Shown here piece by piece: positions 4,184 through 46,143 of a stretch of 64,000 nucleotides of DNA. The translations under genes and the position numbers were made by a program. This stretch comes from an uncultured Candidatus Saccharibacteria bacterium (GTDB lineage Bacteria; Patescibacteriota; Saccharimonadia; Saccharimonadales; JAGQNJ01): the NCBI GenBank assembly GCA_964510945.1, contig CAZEED010000004.1, positions 1,250 through 65,249 on the forward strand, in the 5' to 3' direction. Each line of letters begins with the position of its first letter. The first letter of the stretch is position 1. The notes beneath the pieces were generated by a model. It did not search any database. It saw nothing but the letters and a program-made list of their open reading frames with translations, and was not told the DNA's origin.

Positions 4184-5371
4184 ATGACACAACAAAATAA
4201 CAAAGGTTTTTCGCACATAGAGACATTTTTAGTGCTCTTAGTGGTGGTGGTTATTAGTGCTATTGGATTTAGCGTATACAAACGTTCTTCCGGAAATGAA
4301 TTTAAACTTGCCAATGCAGCAGGTTGCCCAGTAGCTGCCCAAACAGTAGGGGCTAGAGCGAGACACTGGAGAATAAATAAAGAAACCTGGATTAGAGACC
4401 AAGGTTCAAATTATCTATGGGTTCTTAAGATTGGTGGTAGCTCAGAAAGGATTAGGGACATAAATAATTCTCAAAATCGAATGCTAAAAAATCATGACTT
4501 AAGGTTGTTGCAACGACAAGAGATGGCTAGCATGTTTGGTTTTGGAGGCACAGCAGGCGGTGCAACATGGGATGAAATATGCAAAAGCGAACAACGATGC
4601 GGAGATCCTTCAACGTCAAACTGGGGTGATGATGTAAAAGTTAGAAAATGTCGAACCGCTGAGTTAAATAAGTCACTACCGAAATACATGAAAGGTATGA
4701 AAACTATATACACCGACAATAAAGGTGTAAAGCTAAAAGCATGTAGAGATTCAAACAATCCGGCCAGACCTGTACGATTTGCGGTATATGACATCTACAC
4801 AAAGGCGAAACAAGTAGCTCGGAGTAGATCTAATGGCGCGGTAACCGGAAGTGACATTGCGCGCGCTCAAAACGAACTTTACAATTATGGGAGTCCAAGT
4901 CGAACCACAGCCAGTGAAACATACGAGTCATTCGTGGGTCACCTACAACTTAATTCCGGCAAAACAAGGAAGGTTTGGGACGGACGGAGTAAAGTAGCGT
5001 CTATCCAACGAATCAGATCCAATAGTGGAGTTAGCTGGTATACGGGTAGCAGAGATCCGAAAAATCTATCAGAAACTCTGTATTTTTACAACAAGATTGA
5101 AGGCTACGATAAAAAAGCTAATGGTGGCGAGACAAATCCTATCGTAAAATTCAGGCTTAAATATTCAAGCAATGGAACTGAAGTTAAAAAGATTGTTACT
5201 GCTAGATTCAAAAAATTATCAGTCTGCGGCAAAAAGATGTTCCCAGCAACATACTACGAAGAAGCTGTTCAGCAAGGATGGGAAAGCTCGTCCGGTACCA
5301 TAAAGACTGGTCCATACGGGGACACCTCAAACCCATACGCCGACAGAACATCTTCATCGCACGTTCTTTAA
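4184..5371 (+). CDS. Large secreted protein with a type IV prepilin-like leader; body unknown
   Basis: N-terminus MTQQNNKG|FSHIETFLVLLVVVVISAIGF has G at -1, F at +1 and E at +5, followed by a hydrophobic helix. The rest has no motif I recognise. Confidence 0.5.
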   Translation: MTQQNNKGFSHIETFLVLLVVVVISAIGFSVYKRSSGNEFKLANAAGCPVAAQTVGARARHWRINKETWIRDQGSNYLWVLKIGGSSERIRDINNSQNRMLKNHDLRLLQRQEMASMFGFGGTAGGATWDEICKSEQRCGDPSTSNWGDDVKVRKCRTAELNKSLPKYMKGMKTIYTDNKGVKLKACRDSNNPARPVRFAVYDIYTKAKQVARSRSNGAVTGSDIARAQNELYNYGSPSRTTASETYESFVGHLQLNSGKTRKVWDGRSKVASIQRIRSNSGVSWYTGSRDPKNLSETLYFYNKIEGYDKKANGGETNPIVKFRLKYSSNGTEVKKIVTARFKKLSVCGKKMFPATYYEEAVQQGWESSSGTIKTGPYGDTSNPYADRTSSSHVL

Positions 5372-41963: not shown

Positions 41964-42590
41964 ATGGAACGACTAGACGAAGTATCGATCAGCAAATTAA
42001 AGATATGGCTAGGAACAGGTTCGATTAATATTTTTGGTAGGCCATTTTCTGGCAAAGACACACAAGGCAAAAAACTGGCTCAACTCTTCAATGCACCACT
42101 AATTGGAGGTGGCGATATTTTGCGTGCCAGCAAGATTCCAGATGACGTTAAACAAATTATGAGTCGTGGGGAGCTAATCCCAACCAATGACTATGTTAAT
42201 ATTGTTCTCCCGTATTTATCTCAAGAATCTTTAAGAGATAAAGCACTGATATTAAGCTCTGTGGGACGATGGCAAGGGGAAGAATCTGGAGTTATGAGTG
42301 CCTTAAAATCGGCGAATCATCCGCTCAAAGTTGTTATTTATCTTGAGATAACTGAATCAGATGTTAGTAAACGTTGGGAGGCCGCTCGAAGTCTTGGCGA
42401 TAGAGGCAGACGATCAGATGATGCGCACGAAACCCTCTCCACAAGGTTAAAAGAATTTAAAGAAAAGACTATCCCTGTCATAGAATATTACGAAAAAAGT
42501 AACTTATTAATAAAGGTTGACGGATCAAAATCAGAGGAAACAATATTGAAGAATATCCTCGAGTCACTTTTGACTTTTACGACAAATTAA
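41964..42590 (+). CDS. Adenylate kinase-like nucleoside monophosphate kinase
   Basis: P-loop IFGRPFSGKDTQ; GGGDILRA; ...GELIP; LID-like RRSDD. Confidence 0.7.
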   Translation: MERLDEVSISKLKIWLGTGSINIFGRPFSGKDTQGKKLAQLFNAPLIGGGDILRASKIPDDVKQIMSRGELIPTNDYVNIVLPYLSQESLRDKALILSSVGRWQGEESGVMSALKSANHPLKVVIYLEITESDVSKRWEAARSLGDRGRRSDDAHETLSTRLKEFKEKTIPVIEYYEKSNLLIKVDGSKSEETILKNILESLLTFTTN

Positions 42591-44365
42591 TCGCGTTTGA
42601 GCATCACCGTAAAAGCTTCGGGTGGTATTTCTACGTTGCCAAATTTTTTCATCCTAGCTTTACCCTTTTTTTGCTTGGCTAGTTGTTTTTTCTTTCGCGA
42701 GACATCACCACCATATAGCCCAACCGTCACGTCTTTACGATAGGCGCTGATATCCTCACGGGCAATAAAACTTCCGCCAATTGCCGCCTGCAAACTTACC
42801 TTAAACTGCTGACGTGGGATTACTTCTTTCAACTTACCGACAATCTCTCTACCAAAATTCACGGCTTCAGACCTATGTGTCATGACTGATAGTGATTCTA
42901 CAATCTCGCCGGCCACATAAAAATCTACCCTCACCAAATCTTCTACTCGATAATCATCTAGCTCATAGTTAAACGAGCCGTAACCACTAGTGACGCTCTT
43001 TAGTTGATCATAAAAATCTGTTAGTAAGTTTGCGAGCGGTGCTTCAAAGTTAACCACTGCTAATTCGTCTACGTAAGATATATTTTTTTGTAATCCCCTT
43101 TTTGAAGAAATCAACTGAATAACCCCTCCGACAAAACTATTTTGGACGACGATCTCGCCCTTAATCCATGGCTCTTTTATCTCGGCAACTTTTGACACAT
43201 CCGGAAGTTCTGATGCAGATTTAATATCCATCTCCTCGCCACTACTTAAAATGACCTTGTAGTCTGTAGACGGATTAGTCACGATTAGCTCTAGATCATA
43301 CTCGCGCTCGAGTCTTTCTTTGACGATATCCATATGAAGTAATCCCAAAAAACCAACCCTTAGACCAAAACCTAGTACTGGCGAATTCTCTGGCTCATAT
43401 CTTAGTGCGGAGTCAGACAAGGCTAGCTTTTCGATGGCGTCTTTTAGATCGCTATAATCTTCATTGCTTGTCGGGAAAAACCCGGCATAAACAAATGGCA
43501 AAACTTCTTTATAACCCGGTAAAGGATCGATAGAAGGATGGTCTTTCAAAGTTACGGTGTCACCAACTTTAGCTTGTTGAGTACTTTTTAAGTTAGTTAC
43601 GATAAAGCCTATCTCGCCGGTATTTATTGATTTATCTGAAGACATGTCTGGGCTAAGGTGTCCGACGTCAAGAGCAATCCCGTTAGCGCCTGCAGCCACC
43701 ATGCGAATCTCATTATTTTTTTCAATCTTTCCGTCCACTACTCGAACATACAAAATAACTCCGCGATATTCATCATAATAACTATCAAAAATTAGTGCCC
43801 TAGTATCGTTAGATTCAATACCTTTTGGAGGTGGAACATCTGAGACTATTCTTTCTAAAACTTCCTCTACACCTTGGCCGGTCTTGGCAGATATTTTGAT
43901 GATTTCATCCTCACTGCAACCCAGTAGTGAAATTACTTCAGCACTAACCCGTTCAACGTCACTAGCTGGCAAATCAATTTTATTTAACACTGGAATGATT
44001 TTAAGGTCTTGTTCTAGAGCTAAGTAAACGTTGGCAAGTGTCTGAGCCTGGATGCCTTGGCTAGCATCAACGACCAGTAACGCACCCTCGCATGCTTGCA
44101 AGCTTCGAGAAACTTCATAACTAAAATCAACATGTCCGGGAGTATCAATTAGGTTTAGCTCGCAATCCTGATATTTCATTCTAACGGGCTGCAACTTTAT
44201 AGTTATACCCTTCTCGCGTTCTAGATCCATACGATCTAGTAGCTGAGCTTTCATATTCCGTTTTTCGATTGTCCCAGTCAATTCAAGTAATCTATCGGCA
44301 AGCGTGCTCTTACCGTGATCAATATGCGCAATAATGCAAAAATTTCTAATGTGGCTCTGGTTCAT
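42587..44365 (-). CDS. lepA: Translation factor EF4 (LepA)
   Basis: IRNFCIIAHIDHGKSTLADR, DTPGHVDF, NKID, full length. A GGAGG RBS lies 8 nt upstream. Confidence 0.97.
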   Translation of the reverse strand: MNQSHIRNFCIIAHIDHGKSTLADRLLELTGTIEKRNMKAQLLDRMDLEREKGITIKLQPVRMKYQDCELNLIDTPGHVDFSYEVSRSLQACEGALLVVDASQGIQAQTLANVYLALEQDLKIIPVLNKIDLPASDVERVSAEVISLLGCSEDEIIKISAKTGQGVEEVLERIVSDVPPPKGIESNDTRALIFDSYYDEYRGVILYVRVVDGKIEKNNEIRMVAAGANGIALDVGHLSPDMSSDKSINTGEIGFIVTNLKSTQQAKVGDTVTLKDHPSIDPLPGYKEVLPFVYAGFFPTSNEDYSDLKDAIEKLALSDSALRYEPENSPVLGFGLRVGFLGLLHMDIVKERLEREYDLELIVTNPSTDYKVILSSGEEMDIKSASELPDVSKVAEIKEPWIKGEIVVQNSFVGGVIQLISSKRGLQKNISYVDELAVVNFEAPLANLLTDFYDQLKSVTSGYGSFNYELDDYRVEDLVRVDFYVAGEIVESLSVMTHRSEAVNFGREIVGKLKEVIPRQQFKVSLQAAIGGSFIAREDISAYRKDVTVGLYGGDVSRKKKQLAKQKKGKARMKKFGNVEIPPEAFTVMLKRD

Positions 44366-44508
44366 TCGTTTTCCTCCGGAAAGAGAAGCCCAACTAAAAT
44401 GTATTCCATTTTGCTGGCGCGATGAGAAAACCGCGAAGGGGTTGTCTTATAAGCGAAGCGCTCACTATGCGCAATAATGCAAAAATTTCTAATGTGGTCT
44501 TGTTTCAT
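44362..44508 (-). CDS. 48-codon upstream ORF derived from a duplicated lepA 5' end (expression unproven)
   Basis: Own translation: MKQDHIRNFCIIAHSERFAYKTTPSRFSHRASKMEYILVGLLFPEENE*. The stop TGA overlaps the lepA ATG (ATGA). 39 of 43 nt at 44466..44508 equal 44323..44365. Confidence 0.35.
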   Translation of the reverse strand: MKQDHIRNFCIIAHSERFAYKTTPSRFSHRASKMEYILVGLLFPEENE

Positions 44509-44517
44509 GTGGATGCC

Positions 44518-44526
44518 ATTATAACA
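44518..44526 (-). promoter_or_regulatory. Extended -10 promoter (TGTTATAAT) 9 nt upstream of the uORF ATG
   Basis: Minus strand reads ...CTCTGTTATAATGGCATCCACATG. It sits immediately after the murJ stop. Confidence 0.45.
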
Positions 44527-44544
44527 GAGAAGGGGCTACGTATG

Positions 44545-46143
44545 TTACCAATCAATTTTGACAGGTTTGAAAACAATCTTTTTTATTCTATTAGTTACAG
44601 CCTTTGACTCTTCGATATTAAATAAGGACGACATAAAAATATACACACCAAAAGTCACTAGAGATATTGCTACTAGTTTGGTGCCGAGCGTTATGAATCC
44701 AATGTCCGAGGCATTAAGAGGCAAGAACGAAATTGCGATATACGTTGCTACAACGGCGAAACCTGAAACTGACATAATGCGGGTTAAATCGCCCAAGAAG
44801 TTCAGAGTAAAGATCTTTTTGTCCCTGATTAGCATTAATATGACTAAAATGAATACCTCGGCCGCAGCCGCAATACTTTGGGCGATAGCAAGTCCGGCCA
44901 CACCATACGAATTTCGATTAGACAATTTCCAGGCCAAGAATATATTAAGTGCAATAATAAACACCGATACGAGCAAAGGAGTTACCGAATCTTTATTGGC
45001 ATAAAAATATCGAGAAATTATCTGATATATAGTCCTAAAGAATATCGCCCCACATAAAAAGCCTAAGATTAGTGCAATTTGATTGGCATCATCAGGTCTA
45101 GCATAAATAATACGCGCCAAATATCCCCGCGCAAAAAACGATACGATAACAACTGGCATCAAAATCCAAATCATCGCCCGAAGAACATCAATAAACTCTT
45201 TACGAAATAAGTCTGGCCGACCCATAGACAAACGTTCAGTAAGCTTTGGGTATGCTGCTGTGGAGATTGCTGTACCAATTAGCATTATTGGAGTCGTATG
45301 GATAACATAGGCATTTTCGTAATAGGTGATGTTACCGGACCCAAGCCTGTTAGCGAAGTTTGTCTCTGCGATTGAGTTAATGGCGTCGATTCCTTGATCG
45401 ATTGACCTTGCCGGTAACTGCCTTAGTACGCCCCGAAACGCGGCATTCTCCCACCTAATCATCGTTTCGTATCTAAACTTGGTACCCCACATACCAGCTA
45501 ATGCAATAACTAACTGCAGTACAGCACCAGCTACCGCACCCACGCCGAGCCCTACAATCCCGACATTATTTCTGAACAAAAATATACTAGCGATAATTGC
45601 GATGCTGTAAAAAAGTGGTGCCACAGCGTAGAAAAAGAAACGTCCAATGGTCTGCTGAACGCTCATCAAAATACCAGATATCGTAAACATCAGCGGGTTT
45701 AGTGCCACAAGACGCATTATTGTTACCGCATTACTCAATTGTTCTGGCGTCAAATTAGGACCGACGAGTGTACTGATTAACTGCTCTGCAAATACAAAAA
45801 TTAGCAGACCGACAACAAACATAAAGATCATAAGCAAGTTCAGCAGGCTTGATGATATTTGCCAAGCGCCTTTCCTATCACCTTTTTCTAATTTATCGGA
45901 CAAGTATGGAATGAAGGCAACACCAAGTGCACCAGCTGCAATCGTCATAAAAAAGAAATCGGGTATTTTAAAGGCAGCAAAGTATGCATCGGTGCTTTGC
46001 AAACCGGTTGCGGGAAAGTTAGCATTAATAAGCTTCACTTTTAAAAAGCCCAAGACTTGTCCGAGCAATGAAATAGAGATAAGCAGTGTGGCTGCGCCAC
46101 CTATAGACATACTCTTGCTGGCGCGTTTTAAAAAGCGGTTCAT
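44545..46143 (-). CDS. murJ: Lipid II flippase MurJ (MviN)
   Basis: 14-TM MOP-family pattern; ...VLGF.R......FG......DAF..AF..P. Confidence 0.9.
   Translation of the reverse strand: MNRFLKRASKSMSIGGAATLLISISLLGQVLGFLKVKLINANFPATGLQSTDAYFAAFKIPDFFFMTIAAGALGVAFIPYLSDKLEKGDRKGAWQISSSLLNLLMIFMFVVGLLIFVFAEQLISTLVGPNLTPEQLSNAVTIMRLVALNPLMFTISGILMSVQQTIGRFFFYAVAPLFYSIAIIASIFLFRNNVGIVGLGVGAVAGAVLQLVIALAGMWGTKFRYETMIRWENAAFRGVLRQLPARSIDQGIDAINSIAETNFANRLGSGNITYYENAYVIHTTPIMLIGTAISTAAYPKLTERLSMGRPDLFRKEFIDVLRAMIWILMPVVIVSFFARGYLARIIYARPDDANQIALILGFLCGAIFFRTIYQIISRYFYANKDSVTPLLVSVFIIALNIFLAWKLSNRNSYGVAGLAIAQSIAAAAEVFILVILMLIRDKKIFTLNFLGDLTRIMSVSGFAVVATYIAISFLPLNASDIGFITLGTKLVAISLVTFGVYIFMSSLFNIEESKAVTNRIKKIVFKPVKIDW

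What the first reader, a model, noticed from the sequence alone, without database searches (positions are those of the whole stretch)
44323..44526. Upstream ORF that copies the first 14 codons of lepA and terminates in ATGA overlap with the lepA start
44466..44508 repeats 44323..44365 (the lepA start region) with 39/43 identities, including a 32-nt perfect run (TATGCGCAATAATGCAAAAATTTCTAATGTGG).

Read on the minus strand, the copy starts an ORF, MKQDHIRNFCIIAH..., compared with LepA MNQSHIRNFCIIAH.... It continues for 48 codons and stops with a TGA that overlaps the lepA ATG (ATGA at 44362..44365). The lepA GGAGG RBS lies inside the uORF.

An exact extended -10 (TGTTATAAT, 44518..44526) sits 9 nt upstream of the uORF ATG, so the transcript may be leaderless or nearly so.

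This is either a scar of a partial tandem duplication or a leader peptide that couples lepA translation to translation of an EF4-like N-terminus. The second option is attractive because EF4 acts on ribosomes, but it is pure inference.
Basis: partly seen in the sequence, partly recalled or inferred. Interest (0 to 1): 0.6.

Follow-up and report, generated by a model that had tools for sequence, protein, structure and literature searches.

The report
Repeat element splits the lepA start
The "upstream ORF" is the original start of lepA, cut off when a ~95-base folded repeat element, from a family common in Saccharibacteria that I could not find described, was inserted 47 bases into the gene together with a replacement start; translating the leftover stub probably carries ribosomes across the insert.

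Summary
Window 44462-44508 repeats 44319-44365 (42/47, with a 32-nt perfect run). The copy opens a 48-codon ORF that ends in ATGA on the lepA start, and TGTTATAAT sits 9 nt upstream.

It is not a plain tandem duplication, and it is not specific to lepA. In 24 of 80 Saccharibacteria relatives, lepA begins 8-10 nt after the same TGTTATAAT box. The uORF ATG is therefore the ancestral, near-leaderless lepA start.

The 96 nt between the copies is one member of a dispersed structured element:
- more than 120 metagenome contigs carry it;
- covariance model score is 66 bits;
- 16 of 20 base pairs covary;
- it has no Rfam family.

Two other species (L007, L009) carry the same insertion at the same codon. 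The nearest relative (L002) has an exact 143-nt gap there.

The same architecture (orphan gene end, element, SD linker, restored gene end) recurs at a second lepA site and at msrA, a cysteine-desulfurase-like gene and ruvB. In mirror form it recurs at gene 3' ends.

In all 10 5' cases the orphan ORF reads through the element. In 7 of 10 it stops as (A/G)TGA on the new start, which suggests selected translational coupling.

How the duplication arose is unresolved. Imported gene-end "patches" fit best.

The parts
44545..46143 (-). murJ (upstream gene, same strand), ends 18 nt before the promoter box
   Evidence: ORF list. Pfam PF03023 MurJ on the identical contig.
44518..44526 (-). Extended -10 box TGTTATAAT. 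This is the native lepA promoter, now driving the orphan ORF.
   Evidence: Sequence. T[GA]TTATA[ACT]T lies 8-10 nt before the lepA ATG in 24 of 80 relatives. Function is inferred; no TSS data.
44462..44508 (-). Orphan copy of the lepA 5' end (ATG + 15 2/3 codons). This is the ancestral lepA start.
   Evidence: 42/47 identity to 44319-44365. Contiguous with the conserved promoter. Its first codons, ATGAAACAAGACCAC, equal the native start of relative L004.
44362..44508 (-). 48-codon uORF: orphan N-terminus plus read-through of the inserted element, ending with TGA inside ATGA
   Evidence: The equivalent ORFs are open in L007 (GTGA overlap) and L009 (stop 11 nt after the ATG).
44451..44461 (-). 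P1 region of the element (GCGCTTCGCTT, a small hairpin shared by the 'P1-type' subfamily)
   Evidence: Conserved in L007 and L009. GGCGGCTTCGCC-type hairpins precede TTATGAGAC in about 30 other copies.
44376..44450 (-). Core of the structured repeat element: P2 hairpin (44450-44422), CGCG joint, P3 hairpin (about 44417-44389) and a pyrimidine tail ending in CTCTTTCC
   Evidence: Covariance model R1: 66.1 bits, E 7.6e-18, the only copy in the window. Family covariation: 96.5% paired, 16/20 pairs with double changes.
44366..44377 (-). Linker carrying the Shine-Dalgarno GGAGG (44377-44373) for the restored lepA start
   Evidence: SD-bearing linkers of 15-32 nt follow the element in the other 5' insertions.
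44319..44365 (-). Functional copy of the lepA 5' end (new start, ATGAACCAG...)
   Evidence: The (A/G)TGAACCAG start is shared with the restored copies in L007 and L142, but with none of the native starts listed.
42587..44365 (-). lepA (EF4), 592 aa
   Evidence: Pfam GTP_EFTU, EFG_C, LepA_C. 95% identical to L002 LepA.

Best explanation
**What it is.** A ~95-nt member of a dispersed, strand-specifically folded repeat element lies 47 nt inside the ancestral lepA gene of this Saccharibacteria genome. The element has hairpins P1-P2-P3 and a pyrimidine tail. It is followed by a short SD-bearing linker and a second copy of the first 47 nt of lepA, which restores a complete gene.

**What was left behind.** The native, nearly leaderless promoter/start (TGTTATAAT-N9-ATG) now drives a 48-codon stub. 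The stub comprises 14 native LepA residues plus whatever the element encodes in that frame.

**Inferred mechanism.**
1. Ribosomes start at the old ATG.
2. They translate through the hairpins and melt them.
3. They terminate at AUGA and re-initiate on lepA, helped by the GGAGG.

On this view the stub's translation, not its peptide, neutralises the polar effect of the insert.

**Origin of the duplication (least certain).** The duplicated gene end is best read as an imported 'patch' that travelled with the element and recombined in the highly conserved lepA 5' region. It does not look like a simple in-place duplication.

**Shown versus inferred.** Shown: anatomy, family membership, recurrence, covariation and patchy distribution. 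Inferred: transcription start, coupling, and the mode of insertion.
For: **1. Ancestral start.**
- In L002-L006, L024 and others, lepA's ATG lies 8-10 nt after CTCTGTTATAAT. 24 of 80 loci have the box.
- Alignment to the nearest relative, L002, shows an exact 143-nt gap.

**2. The spacer is a family member.**
- The pattern TCTCATCGCGCC-N15-40-GGGCTNCTCTT hits at least 120 metagenome contigs.
- CM hit in the window: 66 bits, E 8e-18.
- Across 122 copies: 96.5% of cells paired, 16/20 pairs with compensatory changes, covariation 0.484 vs 0.119 in shuffles (0/500), and at most 0.093 when partners are slid.
- 102 G-U pairs on this strand against 9 on the complement.

**3. Same site in other species.** L007 and L009 have orphan-element-restored lepA with spacings of 146 and 145 nt and the same junction, CATATTGA|RCGCTTYGCT.

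**4. Recurrence elsewhere.**
- 5' ends: lepA at a second site (L142), msrA (L099, L118, L132, L168), a class-V aminotransferase (L180), ruvB (L196).
- 3' ends: lepA (L009, L018, L119, L128), PGI, a class-I aaRS, a tlyA-like gene, uvrD.

**5. Coupling.** All 10 orphan ORFs at 5' insertions are open through the element, although only 33-57% of copies are open in any given frame. In 7 of 10 the stop overlaps the new start as (A/G)TGA.

**6. The peptide is not conserved where the stems covary** (TTPSR / TPISW / TTTSW).

**7. Evidence for an imported patch.**
- Mismatches between copies cluster in the gene-terminal half: 35 vs 11, excluding one pair with an indel.
- These mismatches preserve coding sense (MKQD/MNQS; ELA*/ELT*; TAA/TAG).
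- Restored lepA starts share (A/G)TGAACCAG in the window, L007 and L142, while their orphans differ.
Against: - There are no transcript or ribosome data. Leaderless initiation at 44508 and re-initiation at 44365 are inferences.
- The GGAGG alone might suffice for lepA translation, which would make the uORF irrelevant.
- Only about 5 independent 5' insertion events underlie the 7/10 figure. At 4 of 5 with overlap, binomial p is about 0.045 against a 1/3 expectation (my calculation).
- L009, L118 and L196 lack the exact overlap.
- The element sample was retrieved with an exact pattern, so the invariance of the two conserved blocks is by construction.
- No enzyme for mobility was identified, and no longer autonomous version exists in the 1.41 Mb held.
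- Perfect repeats (L128 42/42, L132 38/38) are as expected for an in-place duplication and do not by themselves need an imported patch.
Confidence: 0.75

Rival explanations
1. Neutral scar of a partial tandem duplication of the lepA start region, with no element involved and no function.
For: Two direct copies 143 nt apart. lepA retains its own SD, so the upstream copy could be inert.
Against: - A tandem duplication would duplicate the whole 143-nt unit, but only 47 nt are repeated.
- The 96-nt spacer is a high-scoring member of a family with more than 120 copies elsewhere.
- The same arrangement is kept, with the ORF open, in two species at about 79% LepA identity.
Confidence: 0.03
2. A lepA-specific regulatory leader: the EF4-like nascent N-terminus of the uORF senses ribosome or EF4 status and tunes lepA translation or attenuation.
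For: The uORF begins with 14 LepA residues and overlaps the lepA start. The architecture is conserved in L007 and L009.
Against: - The same orphan-element-restored design occurs at msrA, an aminotransferase gene, ruvB and at 3' ends.
- It is absent from 77 of 80 lepA loci, including the sister L002.
- The rest of the peptide is not conserved.
- The N-terminal identity is explained by descent from the old start.
Confidence: 0.04
3. The duplication is an in-place target-site duplication. The element inserts by widely staggered cuts (about 20-56 nt), copying the local gene end. No foreign gene-end patch is involved, and later divergence and gene conversion shape the copies.
For: - Repeats are near-perfect in several loci: L128 42/42, L132 38/38, L180 42/43, L172 40/41, L111 42/43.
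- The empty site in L002 equals one copy.
- Edge erosion under gene conversion could concentrate mismatches at the repeat ends.
Against: - About 85% of copies, in intergenic settings, show no flanking repeat above the background score.
- Repeats begin exactly at the ATG in four independent genes, which a random stagger does not predict.
- Outer mismatches keep the reading sense in both copies, as between orthologues.
- Three restored lepA copies share a start sequence not seen in native starts.
- The complete gene lies on the element's tail side in 19 of 20 cases.
Confidence: 0.25
4. The element is primarily a cis-acting RNA recruited upstream of lepA, not mobile DNA. It could be a terminator/attenuator or a switch whose pyrimidine tail docks on P2 as a triple helix. 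The uORF would then be the anti-terminating leader.
For: - Strand-specific folding with a conserved G-U.
- A GC-rich P3 followed by a U/C-rich tail.
- Parallel-register covariation between the tail and the P2 purine strand: r = 0.94, and the L006 variant obeys the C+.G-C / U.A-U code.
- Ribosomes must cross it in all 5' cases.
Against: - Orientation relative to neighbours is mixed: 15 co-oriented against 31 anti-oriented within co-directional pairs.
- Neighbouring genes share no function.
- Many copies sit antisense next to tRNA 5' ends.
- The terminator scan did not call it.
- Presence/absence at orthologous sites and the gene-end duplications need DNA-level events.
Confidence: 0.15

Closest known systems
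Integrating elements that replace a gene end (SXT/ICE in the 5' end of prfC; islands and phages duplicating tRNA 3' ends). Recalled from established literature (Hochhut & Waldor 1999), not re-read here.
   Same: - The insertion falls inside the end of a conserved gene, and for SXT that gene is also a translational GTPase.
- The element supplies new expression signals and a substitute gene end.
- Direct repeats of the target flank the insert.
   Different: - Here the insert is about 100 nt with no integrase.
- Many different genes are targets.
- The displaced native start is kept translating into the insert.
- No att core shared between targets was found.
Small non-autonomous bacterial repeats: REP/BIME/REPIN, IS200/IS605-derived PATEs, Correia, RUP, ERIC (from general knowledge)
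   Same: - Short, non-coding and multi-copy.
- Hairpin-forming, usually intergenic, and found in both orientations.
- Strand-specific hairpins with G-T/G-U pairs, as for ssDNA-mobilised REP/IS200 ends.
   Different: - No terminal inverted repeats or short fixed TSD were seen.
- No conserved target tetranucleotide was evident.
- No RAYT/TnpA was identified.
- It has two unlike hairpins plus a tail that covaries with P2 in parallel register.
- It is associated with 20-56-nt gene-end duplications.
Rickettsia palindromic elements (RPE) inserted in protein-coding genes (from general knowledge)
   Same: A palindromic repeat tolerated inside coding sequence and translated in an open frame.
   Different: RPEs stay in frame within one protein. 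Here the gene is split into a stub and a restored full-length ORF with its own SD and start.
Translational coupling by overlapping stop/start (AUGA, UGAUG) between adjacent cistrons (established knowledge)
   Same: The upstream stop overlaps the downstream start, and the SD lies inside the upstream ORF.
   Different: The upstream cistron is a remnant of the same gene plus element read-through, created by an insertion, rather than a separate gene.
RNA major-groove triple helices (ENE/MALAT1 3' ends; SAM-II, preQ1-II pseudoknots) (from general knowledge)
   Same: A U/C-rich 3' segment matches the purine strand of a nearby helix in parallel register, as expected for U.A-U and C+.G-C triples.
   Different: This rests only on covariation with no physical evidence. 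The inner C-run does not fit the canonical code in most variants. The function is unknown.

Membership tests
Translationally coupled uORF / overlapping cistrons | Stop codon of the upstream ORF overlaps or abuts the downstream start codon | tested here: met
   ATGA at 44365-44362. (A/G)TGA in 7 of 10 analogous insertions; the other three stop 5-11 nt after the start.
Translationally coupled uORF / overlapping cistrons | The upstream ORF is actually translated and downstream expression depends on it | not testable with these tools
   Needs ribosome profiling or fusions. Indirect support only: 10 of 10 orphan ORFs are open through the element, against 33-57% of copies open per frame.
Leader-peptide attenuation (trpL / ermCL type) | Conserved regulatory codons or a stalling peptide in the leader | tested here: not met
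   Beyond the 14 inherited LepA residues the peptide varies with compensatory stem changes. Reading frames through the element differ between loci.
Leader-peptide attenuation (trpL / ermCL type) | Mutually exclusive terminator and antiterminator structures | tested here: inconclusive
   P3 plus the pyrimidine tail is terminator-like, but the scan did not call it. No alternative pairing is supported. The MFE z-score of the window region is only -0.95.
MITE / REP-like non-autonomous repeat | Short, non-coding, many dispersed copies in varied contexts and both orientations | tested here: met
   At least 120 contigs. 122 CM hits in 724 kb. Mixed neighbour orientation. Up to 4 copies in one 5-kb contig (L089).
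MITE / REP-like non-autonomous repeat | Terminal inverted repeats and a short fixed target-site duplication | tested here: not met
   Neither was apparent on inspecting the ends. Most copies have no flanking repeat above background. Where repeats occur they are 16-56 nt and tied to gene ends.
MITE / REP-like non-autonomous repeat | Presence/absence polymorphism at orthologous sites | tested here: met
   Exact 143-nt gap in L002. Sisters of L007 and L009 lack the insertion.
IS200/IS605-type (ssDNA) derivatives / REPIN-RAYT | Strand-specific subterminal hairpins | tested here: met
   102 vs 9 G-U pairs by strand. Conserved G-U at one P3 pair.
IS200/IS605-type (ssDNA) derivatives / REPIN-RAYT | Cognate HUH transposase (TnpA/RAYT) in the genome and a fixed 4-5-nt target at the left end | not tested
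   No transposase search was run. Left flanks (often GGTA, otherwise varied) show no single target motif.
Integrative element with gene-end replacement (SXT-prfC type) | Element supplies a substitute gene end plus expression signals, and direct repeats of the target flank it | tested here: met
   SD linker plus a new start and 47-nt repeat. Foreign-looking outer codons.
Integrative element with gene-end replacement (SXT-prfC type) | Encodes or depends on a site-specific recombinase acting on a common att core | tested here: not met
   The insert is 96 nt with no ORF of its own. Repeats differ completely between targets. No longer version exists in the 1.41 Mb held.
Known RNA families (Rfam 15) | Match to a curated covariance model | tested here: not met
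   Nothing relevant at E <= 10 in window 44200-44700, nor at E <= 1 in L107, L128 and L132 apart from tRNAs.

The most novel reading that the evidence does not exclude
The element may be a new kind of non-autonomous mobile module in ultra-small (CPR) bacteria. On this reading it spreads between lineages welded to a short 'patch' of a highly conserved gene end (lepA, msrA, tRNA and others). It would enter by one precise joint at its left end plus homologous pairing of the patch. It would survive inside genes because the displaced native start is retained as a coupled mini-cistron whose ribosomes unwind the element. The element's pyrimidine tail and P2 helix would form a triple helix that is part of its mechanism, either as a recombination intermediate or as an RNA 3'-end/SD switch.
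Probability: 0.3. Interest if true: 0.8.

Novelty: new variant of a known kind. Interest (0 to 1): 0.62.

Why it matters
**For annotation.** Short ORFs that mimic the N-terminus (or pseudo-3'-ends) of conserved genes in Saccharibacteria are footprints of this element, not regulators or genes. The true ancestral start and promoter can be read from them.

**For biology.**
- The loci document a repeat family with strong structural covariation for which I found no Rfam family or paper.
- They show a recurrent way in which a compact genome tolerates insertions inside essential-type genes: a restored gene end plus a coupled stub ORF.
- They show a striking bias for the ends of the most conserved genes and for tRNA 5' flanks. 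This hints at homology-assisted spread in naturally competent, recombining CPR bacteria.

**For experiment.** The candidate tail-helix triplex is a directly testable structural prediction.

Tried and rejected
- **Known RNA families.** Rfam scans of the window region and of three other loci found no family.
- **Phage origin.** The pattern scan of viral contigs gave 0 hits.
- **Attenuator fold.** A single-sequence fold of 44340-44520 is unremarkable (z = -0.95), so structure had to be argued from covariation instead.
- **SD-sequestering P4 hairpin.** I looked for a tail CUGCUCU pairing with a downstream AGAGCAG. Only 25 of 120 copies have it within 80 nt, against 8 of 120 in a control segment. 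It is not a constant part, and I dropped it.
- **tRNA-derived (SINE-like) element.** The complement of tail plus flank resembles a tRNA D-arm in some copies. I rejected the idea because the folding strand is the opposite one and the resemblance is confined to a subset.
- **Other element types.**
  - Hammerhead and HDV-like ribozymes were set aside by inspecting the motifs and topology; only the absence of any Rfam match was computed.
  - DGR was rejected because the copy differences are not A-specific.
  - T4 gene-60-type bypassing was rejected because there is no stop after a take-off codon and the restored gene has its own start.
- **Autonomous version.** A search for split or long versions of the element in 1.41 Mb of held sequence found none.
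- **Imported tract in lepA.** Sliding identity against L002 is uniform at about 75-85%. L002 is too distant to be informative.
- **Literature.** Three searches (Saccharibacteria or Patescibacteria with repeat, MITE or structured-RNA terms) found nothing relevant.
Full report
**1.

On the minus strand the order is as follows:
- murJ (46143..44545);
- TGTTATAAT (44526-44518);
- 9 nt of spacer;
- ATG at 44508, opening a 48-codon ORF that ends with TGA at 44364-44362;
- lepA, whose ATG at 44365 overlaps that stop as ATGA.

GGAGG lies at 44377-44373. The repeat is 47 nt (44462-44508 vs 44319-44365), 42/47 identical, with a 32-nt perfect run. Shuffles of the 900-nt neighbourhood never gave an exact repeat longer than 13 nt.

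The contig is a Saccharibacteria (TM7) MAG. Its flanking genes are ftsH, murJ, lepA, an adk-like gene and hrcA-grpE-dnaK.

**2. The uORF start is the ancestral lepA start.**

I fetched 80 lepA loci from species-representative genomes.
- In many of them the lepA ATG lies directly after a conserved CTCTGTTATAAT box, for example L002-L006, L024, L035, L036 and L062.
- 24 of 80 have T[GA]TTATA[ACT]T 8-10 nt before the ATG.

lepA in this group is therefore typically expressed from a nearly leaderless promoter, and in the window that promoter now sits in front of the stub.

The closest relative is L002, with 95% LepA identity but only about 78% DNA identity. It aligns across the region with a single exact gap of 143 nt.

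**3. The 96 nt between the copies is not duplicated lepA sequence.**

A six-frame search for the IRNFCIIAH motif found a second copy only in the window contig, L007 and L009. All three show the same architecture:
- orphan start, then junction CATA(G/T)TGA|RCGCTTYGCT;
- two hairpins whose stems differ by compensatory changes;
- conserved blocks TTTCTCATCGCGCC and GGGCTKCTCTTYCC;
- an SD-like linker;
- a new start plus the same 47 nt.

Spacings are 143, 146 and 145 nt.

**4. The spacer belongs to a large family.**

- A pattern built only from the two conserved blocks found a second copy in L009. It lies just after the lepA stop and in the opposite orientation.
- The pattern found no viral contigs.
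- A covariance model built from 71 copies finds exactly one copy in the 64-kb window: 44376-44450 minus strand, 66 bits.
- Among the 80 lepA loci the model finds copies only in L007, L009 (two), L018 and L006.

On 122 aligned copies:

| measure | value |
|---|---|
| cells forming standard pairs | 96.5% |
| pairs with changes on both sides | 16 of 20 |
| covariation score | 0.484 |
| score in shuffles | 0.119 (0 of 500 reach the observed value) |
| score with partners slid | at most 0.093 |

Folding is strand-specific. There are 102 G-U pairs on the lepA-sense strand against 9 on the complement, and one P3 pair is a conserved G-U.

No Rfam family matches, and three literature searches found nothing.

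One caveat applies. The copies were retrieved with an exact pattern, so the invariance of those two blocks is by construction. Variants such as L006 and L018 show that the blocks do drift.

**5. It behaves as dispersed, probably mobile DNA and not as a dedicated regulator.**

- Neighbour orientation is mixed: cds+/cds+ 15, cds-/cds- 14, tRNA-/cds- 17.
- About a quarter to a third of copies lie with their left end 6-11 nt from the 5' end of a tRNA gene on the other strand (33 of 125 to 38 of 129).
- In about 19 copies a co-directional ORF ends at the element's left edge, which often reads TAATGAGAC.
- The genes involved are unrelated housekeeping genes.
- On a LepA tree the three lepA-5' carriers are separated by non-carriers. 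The window is sister to L002, L007 is sister to L006, and L009 lies in another clade.
- No long or split version was seen in the 1.41 Mb held.

**6. Gene-end duplications are a recurrent companion of the element.**

About 20 of about 125 copies are flanked by direct repeats of 16-56 nt of a gene end. The rest score at background.

| end | gene | loci |
|---|---|---|
| 5' | lepA, site 1 | window, L007, L009 |
| 5' | lepA, site 2 (no P1) | L142 |
| 5' | msrA, after GCFWG | L099, L118, L132, L168 |
| 5' | class-V aminotransferase | L180 |
| 5' | ruvB | L196 |
| 3' (element inverted relative to the gene) | lepA | L009, L018, L119, L128 |
| 3' | PGI, a class-I aaRS, a tlyA-like gene, uvrD/pcrA | one each |
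| 3' | a tRNA-Ser gene | one |

- Several repeats are near-perfect: 42/42, 38/38, 42/43, 40/41, 42/43.
- In 19 of 20 cases the intact gene lies on the element's tail side and the orphan on its left side.
- In four genes the repeat starts exactly at the ATG. At 3' ends it stops within 0-1 nt of the stop codon, or 12-18 nt short of it.

**7. The stub ORF looks selected for translation, not for its product.**

- In all 10 5' insertions the orphan frame is open through the element. Only 33-57% of copies are open in a given frame.
- In 7 of 10 the stop overlaps the restored start as (A/G)TGA, despite linkers of 15-32 nt. These are the window, L007, L142, L099, L132, L168 and L180.
- In L009, L118 and L196 it ends 5-11 nt past the start.
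- Counting likely independent events gives 4 of 5, a binomial p of about 0.045 against a 1/3 expectation.
- The frames used through the conserved core differ between loci (FSHRA vs FFSSRR). Stem covariation rewrites the peptide. The peptide itself is therefore unlikely to matter.

My inference is that a strongly folded insert between a start signal and its gene is tolerated when ribosomes from the old start traverse it and hand over at the new start.

**8. Origin of the duplication is unresolved.**

Mismatches between the copies cluster in the gene-terminal half: 35 vs 11 over ten pairs, excluding one pair with an indel. They also preserve meaning in both copies:
- MKQD vs MNQS, both of which are natural LepA starts;
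- GAGCTCGCCTAG vs GAATTGACATGA, which read ELA* vs ELT*;
- TAA vs TAG.

The restored lepA copies of the window, L007 and L142 share (A/G)TGAACCAG, which none of the native starts has.

This is what one expects if the element travels with a short piece of a foreign orthologue's gene end and recombines within the conserved segment. That would also explain three other features:
- the repeat boundaries at ORF ends, where homology stops;
- the enrichment at very conserved genes;
- the fixed polarity.

An in-place long target duplication followed by gene conversion with edge erosion remains possible. The perfect repeats favour it. I give it 0.25.

**9. A structural oddity.**

The pyrimidine tail after P3 covaries with the purine-rich 5' strand of P2 in parallel register, not antiparallel.
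- The number of A's after GAGAC equals the number of U's after CUCU in 99 of 108 copies (r = 0.94).
- The rule A to U, G/C to C is obeyed at 86% of positions, against 63% in shuffles.
- A divergent copy (L006) has P2 GAGAGGGG/CCCCTCTC and tail CUCUCUCCCC. This is the canonical U.A-U / C+.G-C code.

That pattern suggests a major-groove triplex in RNA or ssDNA. The evidence is covariation only, drawn from about four sequence classes.

**10. Verdict.**

The stub is an orphaned native gene start next to a member of a repeat family I could not find described. Its read-through and ATGA hand-over to lepA are probably functional as coupling. The element family, its gene-end duplications and its possible triplex are the real novelty.

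Noticed in passing
L009:4741-4923 (lepA 3' end); also L018:3790-3925, L119, L128, L158: A second copy of the element sits immediately after the lepA stop codon, inverted relative to lepA. It is flanked by a 25-56-nt duplication of the lepA 3' end (...AEAFTVMLKRD*). Both ends of lepA are therefore hot spots: about 5 of the 125 copies in the pattern-retrieved contigs adjoin lepA.
   Followed up: partly
L082-L201, e.g. L107:6986-7139 and L107:2058-2208: 33-38 of about 125 element copies have a tRNA gene on the opposite strand whose 5' end lies only 6-11 nt from the element's left end (GGTA|ATGAGAC). Many different tRNA species are involved. No explanation was found. If the tRNA promoter is upstream, the tRNA must be transcribed through the element's complement.
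   Followed up: partly
Alignment A2/A3; L006:2885-2965: The tail (CUCU-Un-Cm) mirrors the P2 5' strand (GAGA-C-An-Cm) in parallel register (r = 0.94). The L006 variant GAGAGGGG...CCCCTCTC with tail CTCTCTCCCC fits a pyrimidine-motif triple helix. In most variants the inner C-run faces a C-G pair rather than a G-C pair, which the canonical triplex code does not explain.
   Followed up: partly
L006:2880-3000: In the sister of L007 a divergent copy of the element lies between the murJ stop and the intact lepA promoter/start, with no duplication. The murJ-lepA junction has therefore been hit in at least two different ways in closely related lineages.
   Followed up: partly
L168 (minus-strand orientation), msrA locus: The orphan msrA fragment has no start of its own. 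It is fused in frame to the upstream ORF, which is open for more than 330 nt. That upstream gene now reads through the element and stops at ATGA on msrA.
   Followed up: no
window 42587-42590: lepA (minus strand) and the convergent adk-like ORF (41964..42590, plus strand) overlap by 4 nt at their 3' ends, so there is no room for a terminator between them.
   Followed up: no
L009 copies at 2914-2988 and 4798-4874; L111, L089: The two copies in L009 share a P3 variant (GGGCAAAAAATGC..TTTTTGCGC, with GCGC where most copies have GCTC). This suggests within-genome spread or conversion. Copies sharing a contig in L111 and L089 have quite different P3 stems.
   Followed up: no
L017 and L067 (record titles): Two contigs labelled as Acidobacteria MAGs (Candidatus Sulfotelmatobacter, Candidatus Acidoferrum) carry lepA that is 75% and 70% identical to this Saccharibacteria LepA. 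L017 groups among Saccharibacteria in the LepA tree; L067 was too short to be included. Mis-binning is likely.
   Followed up: no
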